Source of the DNA: Escherichia coli
GTDB lineage: Bacteria; Pseudomonadota; Gammaproteobacteria; Enterobacterales; Enterobacteriaceae
Assembly: GCF_003334815.1 (NCBI RefSeq)
Contig: NZ_QOWO01000004.1
DNA: 64,000 nt
Strand: one strand, 5' to 3'
Below, piece by piece: positions 14,356 through 14,780 of this stretch. Position numbers and translations under genes: made by a program. Below the pieces are notes generated by a model. The model worked only from the letters and a program-made list of their open reading frames with translations. It made no database searches and had not been told where the DNA came from. Every line of letters starts with the position of its first letter. Position 1 is the first letter of the stretch.

Positions 14356-14458
14356 CCGTTATCTCCTGATACACCTTAGATCTATAAGGCTACGCTAGCG
14401 TATCAAAACTGACAATTCATTCTATGAATGAAATCGAAACTGTTAGCAAATATACCAT

Positions 14459-14559
14459 TGCCTGATGCGCTCCGCTTATCAGTCCTACAAAAACATCAAT
14501 ATATTGAATTTAGGCAACATTTGTAGACCAGATATGGCATTCATGCCGCATCCGGCAGG
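14459..14559. repeat. REP-like palindromic element(s) in the yeeZ-hisL intergenic region
   Basis: gcctgatgcgctccgcttatcag... and ...gccgcatccggcagg resemble REP/BIME units. Confidence 0.5.
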
Positions 14560-14780
14560 AACAAAGCCCACTTTAGTTACAGAACACAATGTTCTTGAGG
14601 GTTTTAAAGACATATTTTCACGATTACTTTTCTAACGTAGTCACTCCAGGCCCCCTCCTTTCCCCGCTCATTCATTAAACAAATCCATCGCCATAAAATA
14701 TATAAAAAAGCCCTTGCTTTCTAACGTGAAAGTGGTTTAGGTTAAAAGACATCAGTTGAATAAACATTCACAGAGACTTT

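What the first reader, a model, noticed from the sequence alone, without database searches (positions are those of the whole stretch)
14356..14780. yeeZ-hisL junction lacks the yefM-yoeB toxin-antitoxin pair found here in E. coli K-12
In K-12 the yefM-yoeB TA module lies between yeeZ and hisL. Here the interval is only about 425 bp and holds just REP-like sequence and the his promoter/leader region, with no ORF resembling YefM or YoeB on either strand. This suggests the TA pair is an insertion in the K-12 lineage, or was deleted in this one.
Basis: partly seen in the sequence, partly recalled or inferred. Interest (0 to 1): 0.3.

Follow-up and report, generated by a model that had tools for sequence, protein, structure and literature searches.

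The report
Common TA-less allele of yeeZ–hisL spacer

Summary
yeeZ (13531-14355, minus strand) and hisL (ATG at 14782) are 426 bp apart, and nothing in the 64-kb window resembles YefM or YoeB. K-12 does carry yoeB-yefM at this site.

It is not a clean insertion or deletion. About 204-217 bp in the window (14433-14649) stands where K-12 has about 645-658 bp. The window's segment is a single BIME (two inverted REPs, 14459-14557) flanked by locus-specific sequence.

Among 5,426 complete E. coli genomes, 1,199 (22%) carry the window's allele, including O157:H7 and BL21(DE3). 4,218 (78%) carry the TA allele, and the two are essentially mutually exclusive. Seventy-five non-Escherichia Enterobacteriaceae have a compact spacer with neither segment. 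E. albertii and two other Escherichia species carry the window's type; E. whittamii carries the TA type.

Related yefM-yoeB cassettes sit on enterobacterial plasmids, and that homology ends at the yoeB stop codon, 3-5 bp from the left breakpoint. The TA is therefore the mobile insert, but it is not specific to the K-12 lineage.

Iguchi et al. 2011 already reported the missing genes and the REPs here in O157 Sakai. This is already known and of low interest.

The parts
13531..14355 (-). yeeZ (SDR-family oxidoreductase / putative epimerase)
   Evidence: 274-aa ORF. 100% protein identity to K-12 YeeZ. Annotated as yeeZ in matching genomes.
14356..14432 (.). Left flank shared by both alleles (yeeZ 5' region). 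It contains the palindrome AATTCATTCTATGAATG at 14414-14430, which is conserved across genera.
   Evidence: 100% identical to K-12 L001 4130-4206. Partly invariant in Salmonella and Citrobacter. Inverted repeat I1.
14433..14458 (.). Allele-specific unique sequence to the left of the BIME
   Evidence: Absent from K-12. Present in E. albertii and other 217-type alleles. Not part of the dispersed BIME homology.
14459..14488 (+). REP 1, z2-like
   Evidence: 28 of 30 matches to the z2 consensus, which I recalled from memory. Conserved in paralogous BIMEs at sseB-pepB and fdhE-yiiF. Forms a hairpin when folded.
14489..14522 (.). 34-bp BIME linker with the palindrome TCAATATATTGA and an IHF-like core, ATCAATATATTG, at 14495-14506
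   Evidence: Pattern match ATCAAN4TTR. Palindrome I4. The core CAATATATTGAATTT is invariant in paralogues.
14523..14557 (-). REP 2, y-type, inverted relative to REP 1 (tail-to-tail)
   Evidence: 30 of 35 matches to the y consensus. 88.6% identical to the REP at window 46474-46508. Conserved in paralogues.
14558..14636 (.). Allele-specific unique sequence to the right of the BIME
   Evidence: Absent from K-12. No significant homology to the yefM upstream region once the terminal bases are removed (33 of 500 shuffles reach the score). Present in other Escherichia 217-type alleles.
14637..14703 (.). Sequence shared by both Escherichia alleles but absent from other genera. Its first ~13 bp (AGTCACTCCAG) blur the right breakpoint.
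   Evidence: Alignment A1. blastn homology with K-12 resumes at 14650. The motif AGTC(A)CTCTTAG is shared between the TA alleles and the E. albertii and MOD1 217-type alleles.
14704..14781 (+). his promoter region (TTGCTT at 14714-14719, TAGGTT at 14738-14743) and the start of the leader transcript
   Evidence: This block is nearly invariant across Escherichia, Salmonella and Citrobacter. The assignment of the hexamers to the his promoter is from my memory of the published promoter and was not tested here.
14782..14832 (+). hisL leader peptide (MTRVQFKHHHHHHHPD)
   Evidence: Read directly from the sequence. Annotated as hisL in matching genomes.
14808..14931 (+). His operon leader / attenuator RNA
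   Evidence: Rfam RF00514, 131.6 bits against a gathering score of 49.
14978..15877 (+). hisG (ATP phosphoribosyltransferase)
   Evidence: 299-aa ORF beginning MTDNTRL. Annotated as hisG in matching genomes.

Best explanation
The window carries the minority (22%) allele of an old two-allele polymorphism in the yeeZ-hisL spacer.

**What the window holds.** The spacer is only a divergent regulatory region: the his promoter and attenuator on one strand and the yeeZ 5' region on the other. It also contains one BIME (a z2-like REP, a 34-bp linker with an IHF-like core, and an inverted y REP) embedded in about 105 bp of locus-specific DNA.

**What the other allele holds.** The majority (78%) allele, as in K-12, has a promoter-yefM-yoeB cassette plus about 73 bp of unknown origin at the same place. 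It has identical breakpoints in every genome inspected.

**Origin.** The TA cassette is the horizontally acquired element. It is absent from all other enterobacterial genera at this site. It has plasmid-borne relatives whose homology stops at the yoeB stop codon, 3-5 bp from the left breakpoint.

**Polarity (inferred, about 0.55).** The BIME-bearing allele is probably the older Escherichia state, and the cassette replaced about 204 bp of it once.

**Spread.** Both alleles have since been carried between lineages and species by homologous recombination in the his/O-antigen recombination hot region.

**Consequence for this strain.** It has no YoeB/YefM at this locus. yeeZ cannot be co-transcribed from the yefM promoter and must use its own promoter.
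For: - **Breakpoints and replacement:**
- **Allele frequencies:** 1,199 and 4,218 of 5,426 genomes, summing to 5,417 of the 5,424 that hold the junction, at one place per genome.
- **Outgroups:** 75 non-Escherichia genomes have a yeeZ-hisG gap of 363-407 bp with no TA. E. albertii, E. sp. E1V33, E. sp. MOD1-EC7003 and E. coli E69 carry the 217-bp type. E. whittamii carries the TA type.
- **Age of the 217-bp segment:** in E. albertii it is 88% identical to the window. That lies outside the within-E. coli range of 95.8% or more, and the flanks show comparable or greater synonymous divergence.
- **Plasmid cassettes:** 74-86% identical over query positions 5-572 only, which is the yoeB stop codon to 64 bp upstream of yefM.
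- **Recent shared ancestry of the TA genes:** synonymous divergence between K-12 and E. whittamii is 0.04-0.14 for the TA genes and 0.22-0.57 for the flanking genes.
- **The BIME is a dispersed repeat:** paralogues lie at sseB-pepB and fdhE-yiiF.
- **Literature:** Sakai lacks yoeB/yefM and has REPs in yeeZ-hisL (PMC3158064). TA cassettes consist of a promoter/operator plus ORFs with no terminator, and yeeZ is likely co-transcribed with them (PMC5120126). REPs occupy the ccdO157 site in strains that lack that TA (PMC7167474).
Against: - The polarity is not proven. Only one genome per non-coli species was examined, and E. fergusonii was not recovered.
- The left breakpoint between the two alleles coincides with the point where homology to other genera ends. 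Independent insertions into an empty site would also predict this.
- The non-coding part of the TA segment is 8% diverged between K-12 and E. whittamii. That is as much as the 217-bp alleles differ among the cryptic clades, so the TA allele may be equally old.
- 73 bp of the TA allele (L001 4779-4851) has no identified source.
- No expression data were available for yeeZ or the BIME.
Confidence: 0.85

Rival explanations
1. Derived loss. The Escherichia ancestor carried yefM-yoeB here, and in the lineage leading to the window's allele the cassette was deleted and replaced by a BIME-containing segment.
For: The TA allele is the majority (78%) and is also present in E. whittamii. Decay or loss of chromosomal TA systems, with REPs at the vacated site, is described for ccdO157 (PMC7167474). 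BIMEs are mobile or amplifiable (PMC3333891).
Against: Only 99 of the 204-217 bp are BIME. The other ~105 bp are unique, have no homology to the TA segment and have no source under this model. E. albertii carries the 217-bp type at 88% identity, consistent with long vertical residence. No decayed TA remnant exists; the only candidate, HH97, looks like a consensus artefact.
Confidence: 0.17
2. Two independent insertions. The Escherichia ancestor had an empty site, with the left flank joined directly to the right flank. The BIME-bearing segment and the TA cassette then each inserted at that same hot spot.
For: Both allele-specific segments begin within about 4 bp of the point where homology to Salmonella and Citrobacter is lost. 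TA insertion sites are described as plastic hot spots that take various elements (PMC7167474). An ISAs1 has also landed here in strain AR434.
Against: No empty-site allele was found in 5,424 E. coli genomes or in 5 Escherichia species. The only compact spacers are Kluyvera-like imports. The first bases of the 217-bp segment (ATCGAAAC) still loosely resemble the Salmonella sequence at the same position.
Confidence: 0.2
3. Assembly or annotation artefact. The TA genes are present in the strain but were collapsed or lost in this sequence.
For: None found. One public genome, HH97, does show a garbled mixture of both alleles at this site, so artefacts do occur here.
Against: The window's interval is clean. 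It is 100% identical to strain G5 and 96-99% identical to 1,197 other complete genomes with the same structure.
Confidence: 0.01

Closest known systems
yeeZ-hisL region of E. coli O157:H7 Sakai (Iguchi et al. 2011, PLoS One 6:e23250, PMC3158064)
   Same: The same locus and the same state: yoeB and yefM are missing between yeeZ and hisL, and REP sequences lie in that intergenic region. O157:H7 genomes match the window's 217-bp segment at 96.7%.
   Different: That paper looked at six O157 strains. It did not give allele frequencies, outgroup states, breakpoints or the BIME anatomy. The window comes from a different strain; the closest complete genome is G5 from a healthy human.
ccdO157 at folA-apaH (Mine et al. 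2009, as summarised in Fraikin et al. 2020, PMC7167474)
   Same: A chromosomal type II TA is present in some E. coli strains between two conserved core genes, and REP sequences occupy the same intergenic site in strains that lack it.
   Different: A different TA family (CcdAB rather than YefM-YoeB) and a different locus. At folA-apaH the TA is the minority state and shows decay. Here the TA is the majority state and was annotated intact in all sampled genomes.
K-12 yefM-yoeB module (type II TA; YoeB is a ribosome-dependent mRNA interferase, YefM an antitoxin degraded by Lon)
   Same: It occupies exactly this chromosomal site in K-12 and in 78% of E. coli.
   Different: It is absent from the window, both at this site and across the 64 kb.
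E. coli BIME-1 / RIB elements (y + z1 REPs with a long L linker that binds IHF; Bachellier/Boccard classification as described in PMC3333891)
   Same: A single-copy pair of inverted REPs, tail-to-tail, with a long (34 bp) conserved linker carrying an IHF-like core. It has dispersed paralogues of the same architecture.
   Different: The non-y REP is 30 nt long and matches z2 (28/30) better than z1 (29/37), so by the strict definition it is an atypical or chimeric BIME. IHF binding was not tested. It lies between divergent promoters, whereas such elements usually lie at the 3' end of a transcription unit.

Membership tests
YefM-YoeB type II toxin-antitoxin module | An ORF encoding a Phd/YefM-family antitoxin | tested here: not met
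   tblastn of K-12 YefM against the whole window gives no hit with E below 0.28. No ORF in 14356-14781 exceeds 56 aa, and the longest ones run through the REPs.
YefM-YoeB type II toxin-antitoxin module | An adjacent ORF encoding a YoeB/Txe (RelE-superfamily) toxin | tested here: not met
   The best tblastn hit for K-12 YoeB is E = 0.28, at an unrelated position (48952). blastn of the 658-bp cassette finds only 14-20 nt chance words.
BIME (bacterial interspersed mosaic element) | [quoted passage not shown] | tested here: met
   Arms at 14459-14491 and 14520-14557 are complementary (I2 and I3). Each REP forms its own hairpin.
BIME (bacterial interspersed mosaic element) | Membership of a dispersed, repeated family in the genome | tested here: met
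   The 67-bp linker plus REP tails finds paralogues at 79-81% identity over 97-100% of its length in 1,729 genomes that lack this allele. Examples are sseB-pepB and fdhE-yiiF. The alignment shows that homology ends at the REP ends.
BIME-1 / RIB subtype | Composed of y + z1 REPs | tested here: inconclusive
   The y REP matches 30/35. The other REP fits z2 (28/30) better than z1 (29/37). The consensus strings were recalled from memory, and the subtype definitions come from PMC3333891.
BIME-1 / RIB subtype | A long conserved L linker with an IHF binding site, present as a single copy | tested here: met
   A 34-bp linker contains ATCAATATATTG, which matches the ATCAAN4TTR core, and the linker core is conserved in paralogues. 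This is a pattern match only.
BIME-1 / RIB subtype | IHF actually binds | not testable with these tools
   This needs a gel shift or ChIP experiment.
his operon control region | hisL leader peptide with a run of His codons, plus the attenuator RNA | tested here: met
   The sequence encodes MTRVQFKHHHHHHHPD. Rfam His_leader scores 131.6 bits.
Chromosomal TA presence/absence polymorphism at a conserved intergenic hot spot | Identical flanking core genes, alternative occupancy of one site, and a TA with mobile (plasmid) relatives | tested here: met

The most novel reading that the evidence does not exclude
The same alternation, a type II TA cassette in some strains and a REP/BIME in others, is now seen at two unrelated E. 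coli loci (folA-apaH and yeeZ-hisL). This could mean that REP/BIME sites, or the machinery acting on them (the REP-associated tyrosine transposase, gyrase, IHF), serve as landing pads for promoter-TA cassettes that have no terminator. That would give a mechanism for chromosomal TA integration, which reviews still describe as unknown.
Probability: 0.06. Interest if true: 0.45.

Novelty: already known. Interest (0 to 1): 0.1.

Why it matters
It matters little. Absence of yefM-yoeB from this site is a common state, found in 22% of complete E. coli genomes including O157:H7 and BL21(DE3), and it was published in 2011. It has some practical use: the strain cannot show YoeB-dependent phenotypes from this locus, and yeeZ cannot be read through from the yefM promoter as proposed for K-12. 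The added detail (exact breakpoints, replacement rather than a clean indel, both alleles present across Escherichia species, a plasmid-type cassette ending at the yoeB stop codon) is a small, tidy data point for the open question of how chromosomal TA cassettes integrate.

Tried and rejected
1. **Residual homology between the two allele-specific segments.**
   - Local alignment of the 217 bp against the 658 bp scores no better than shuffles: 62 of 200 and 78 of 200 shuffles reach the observed score.
   - The right-hand 91 bp against the yefM upstream region reached z of about 2.8. This came from the terminal ~13 bp (AGTC.CTC..AG). Without them, 33 of 500 shuffles reach the score.
   - I concluded that the right breakpoint is blurred by about 13 bp and there is otherwise no homology.
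2. **HH97 (L082) as a decayed-TA intermediate.** Its 649-bp interval interleaves both alleles, has many indels and contains no ORF. I treated it as a mixed-read consensus artefact and did not use it.
3. **MEI4BO-21 (L083) as an E. coli empty site.** Rejected: its yeeZ-hisG segment is 94.9% identical to Kluyvera georgiana, so it is an imported segment.
4. **Rfam.** Nothing in the interval reaches a gathering score. At E up to 1 there are only weak hits to REP-derived sRNA models: naRNA4 at 20.9 bits and ES036 at 18.4 bits.
5. **K-12 RefSeq annotation of REP/RIP elements, to name the BIME type.** The local feature table lists none at fdhE-yiiF, so I aligned the sequences directly instead.
6. **Ramisetty & Santhosh 2016 (FEMS Microbiol Lett).** The paper is not held in the library. 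I cite its content only as relayed in PMC5120126.
7. **Terminator scan.** No terminator-like sites were found in 14300-15000.

Full report
**1.

The window is E. coli.
- yeeZ is at 13531-14355 on the minus strand. It encodes 274 aa, 100% identical to K-12 YeeZ.
- The hisL ATG is at 14782, and the peptide is MTRVQFKHHHHHHHPD.
- Rfam His_leader covers 14808-14931 at 131.6 bits.
- hisG starts at 14978.

In K-12 MG1655 the order is yeeZ, yoeB, yefM, hisL, so the recalled gene order is right. tblastn of K-12 YefM and YoeB against all 64 kb gives nothing better than E = 0.28. blastn of the K-12 cassette gives only 14-20 nt chance words.

**2. It is a replacement, not a clean indel**

- Window 14201-14432 equals K-12 L001 3975-4206 at 100% identity.
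- Window 14650-14900 equals L001 4865-5115 at 99.6% identity.
- In between, 217 bp in the window stand where K-12 has 658 bp.
- Comparison with other Escherichia alleles shows that the motif AGTC(A)CTCTTAG, just left of 14650, is shared by both allele types. The right breakpoint is therefore blurred by about 13 bp, and the truly allele-specific parts are about 204 bp and about 645 bp.
- Outside that motif the two segments show no homology beyond shuffled controls.

**3. Anatomy of the window's segment**

| Window coordinates | Content |
|---|---|
| 14433-14458 | unique sequence |
| 14459-14488 | REP matching the z2 consensus 28/30 |
| 14489-14522 | 34-bp linker with the palindrome TCAATATATTGA and an IHF-like core, ATCAATATATTG |
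| 14523-14557 | inverted y-type REP, 30/35 |
| 14558-14636 | unique sequence |

These assignments rest; the REP consensus strings are from memory. The REP-linker-REP unit is a dispersed repeat. Its linker plus REP tails find paralogues at 79-81% identity in 1,729 genomes that lack this allele, for example at sseB-pepB and fdhE-yiiF. The alignment shows that homology stops at the outer REP ends.

By the definitions in PMC3333891 this is a single-copy BIME. It has a BIME-1-like long linker but a z2-like REP, which makes it atypical. Rfam finds no RNA family in the interval.

**4. Population picture**

Among 5,426 complete E. coli genomes:
- 1,199 hold the 217-bp segment, at one place per genome, 95.8-100% identical. 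They include O157:H7 and BL21(DE3).
- 4,218 hold the yoeB-yefM segment, at one place per genome, on chromosomes only, 95.4-100% identical.
- Together these make 5,417 of the 5,424 genomes that contain the junction, so the two states are essentially mutually exclusive.

Rare states:
- Seven genomes have a diverged region (80-90% identity). One of them, MEI4BO-21, has a 178-bp spacer on a segment 94.9% identical to Kluyvera georgiana.
- AR434 has an ISAs1 inserted next to the y REP.
- HH97 has a garbled mixture of both alleles, which I regard as an artefact.

**5. Outgroups**

A scan with YeeZ of one genome per species returned 80 loci.
- All 75 non-Escherichia Enterobacteriaceae have a yeeZ-hisG gap of 363-407 bp with neither segment. 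These include Salmonella, Citrobacter, Enterobacter, Klebsiella, Kluyvera and Raoultella. Their spacer runs from the conserved CTGACAATTCAT... block almost directly into the invariant his promoter block.
- Within Escherichia, E. albertii, E. sp. E1V33, E. sp. MOD1-EC7003 and E. coli E69 carry the 217-bp type. E. whittamii carries the TA type, with the same breakpoints as K-12 and YefM/YoeB proteins 100% identical to K-12.
- Both Escherichia alleles share about 55-67 bp (14637-14703) that other genera lack.

**6. The TA is the mobile part**

In the plasmid collection, yefM-yoeB cassettes occur on large plasmids at the following identities:
- 83-86%: Salmonella, Citrobacter and E. marmotae.
- 74-78%: Enterobacter, Pantoea and Acinetobacter.

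Homology covers query positions 5-572 only. That runs from the yoeB stop codon to about 64 bp upstream of yefM. It fits the description of transferable TA units as a promoter/operator plus ORFs with no terminator (PMC5120126). The yoeB stop codon lies 3-5 bp from the left breakpoint. The remaining 73 bp of the K-12 allele (L001 4779-4851) has no identified source.

**7. Polarity**

Evidence that the BIME allele is older:
- It is present in four of the five Escherichia species representatives.
- Its divergence in E. albertii (88.3%) lies outside the within-E. coli range, alongside flank dS of 0.22-0.37.
- TA-gene dS between K-12 and E. whittamii is 0.036-0.138, against 0.215-0.568 for hisG, yeeZ and yeeY.
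- Derived loss would need a source for about 105 bp of unique non-REP DNA.

Evidence against:
- The TA segment's non-coding part is 8% diverged between K-12 and E. whittamii.
- Only one genome per species was examined.
- The allele breakpoint coincides with the point where outgroup homology is lost.

I put 'BIME allele older, replaced once by the cassette' at about 0.55. Independent insertions get about 0.2, and derived loss about 0.17.

**8. Function**

- Shown: the strain has no YefM/YoeB at this locus or within the 64 kb. The his promoter and attenuator lie in sequence shared by both alleles.
- Inferred: his regulation is unaffected. yeeZ cannot be read through from the yefM promoter, as has been suggested for K-12 (PMC5120126).
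- Consensus match only: a promoter-like site on the yeeZ strand (CTAACA-16-TAGAAT, 14446-14419) straddles the left breakpoint. Its -10 lies in shared DNA and its -35 in allele-specific DNA, so yeeZ expression may differ between alleles.
- Untested: the BIME may bind IHF or gyrase, as such elements do (PMC3333891).

**9. Prior knowledge**

- Iguchi et al. 2011 state that O157 Sakai lacks yoeB and yefM between yeeZ and hisL. They also report that REPs lie in the yeeZ-hisL spacer and that indels there involve REP-containing fragments. They place this in the context of recombination around the O-antigen locus (PMC3158064).
- Fraikin et al. 2020 list no TA system shared by MG1655, W, EDL933 and UTI89. 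They describe REPs at the ccdO157 site in strains that lack that TA, and they note that the integration mechanism is unknown (PMC7167474).

**10. Verdict**

The TA is an inserted cassette, but it is not specific to the K-12 lineage, and this strain has not undergone a simple deletion.
- The finding is already known, and I score its interest at about 0.1.

Noticed in passing
L083 (NZ_CM149565.1, E. coli MEI4BO-21) 2079-4160; 7 genomes in the 80-90% identity band: A few E. coli genomes carry a yeeZ-hisL-hisG segment that is 94.9% identical to Kluyvera georgiana. It is only 75-87% identical to the window, has a compact 178-bp spacer and has no yeeY. This looks like an inter-genus import next to the O-antigen locus.
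   Followed up: partly
L084 (NZ_CP029122.1, E. coli AR434) 2424-4100; equivalent to window ~14558-14570: An ISAs1-family transposase is inserted immediately to the right of the y REP of the 217-bp allele, with about 13 bp duplicated. This fits the view that REPs and this spacer are insertion hot spots.
   Followed up: partly
L082 (NZ_CP116409.1, E. coli HH97) 2276-2924: A 649-bp yeeZ-hisL interval reads like an interleaving of the BIME allele and the TA allele, with many indels and no ORF. It is probably a consensus of mixed reads, so the deposited assembly may be flawed at this site.
   Followed up: partly
L001 (K-12) 4779-4864: The TA allele carries about 73 bp beyond the plasmid-homologous cassette, of unknown origin. 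It ends in a perfect hairpin, CTAAGAGGAC/AGTCCTCTTAG. The 3' arm of that hairpin is the sequence shared with the BIME-type alleles of E. albertii and MOD1.
   Followed up: partly
window 14419-14446 (minus strand): A promoter-like site for yeeZ (CTAACA-16 nt-TAGAAT) straddles the left breakpoint. The -10 lies in DNA shared by both alleles and the -35 in allele-specific DNA, so yeeZ transcription could depend on the allele.
   Followed up: no
window 14414-14430: The palindrome AATTCATTCTATGAATG upstream of yeeZ is conserved from Escherichia to Salmonella, Citrobacter and Kluyvera. It could be a regulator site, perhaps for the adjacent LysR-type YeeY. That is speculation.
   Followed up: no
window 12436-12510 (-), 41090-41128 (-), 46477-46547 (+), 51018-51067 (-): Rfam gathering-level hits elsewhere in the window: STnc240 sRNA between plaP/yoeI and yeeY; a JUMPstart element upstream of the O-antigen cluster; naRNA4 (a REP-derived nucleoid-associated RNA) in tandem BIMEs; and the algC RNA motif.
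   Followed up: no
window ~1-4160: By collinearity with strain G5's annotation, the left end of the window holds the tail of a CbtA-family toxin gene, a DUF5983 gene, a degraded IS110 transposase, IS100 (istA 1900-2922; the istB ORF 2919-3557 is shorter than in G5) and a EutP/PduV-family gene. This is a remnant of a CP4-44-like island carrying another TA family.
   Followed up: partly
window ~32650-34000 and ~39500: The O-antigen cluster has a ~1.35-kb stretch with no long ORF where strain G5 annotates a degraded ISAs1 transposase. The window lacks the ~1-kb IS5 that interrupts rfbD in G5, and its rfb genes are intact. G5's many frameshifts (95 gap openings over 39.5 kb) look like assembly errors.
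   Followed up: partly
L002 (CP089930.1, E. coli E69) compared with window 13531-14355: The GTDB E. coli representative returned by the scan is unexpectedly diverged from the window in yeeZ (94.9% identity, dS 0.24) although it carries the same 217-bp allele at 97.7%. This suggests a mosaic history of recombination around this locus.
   Followed up: no
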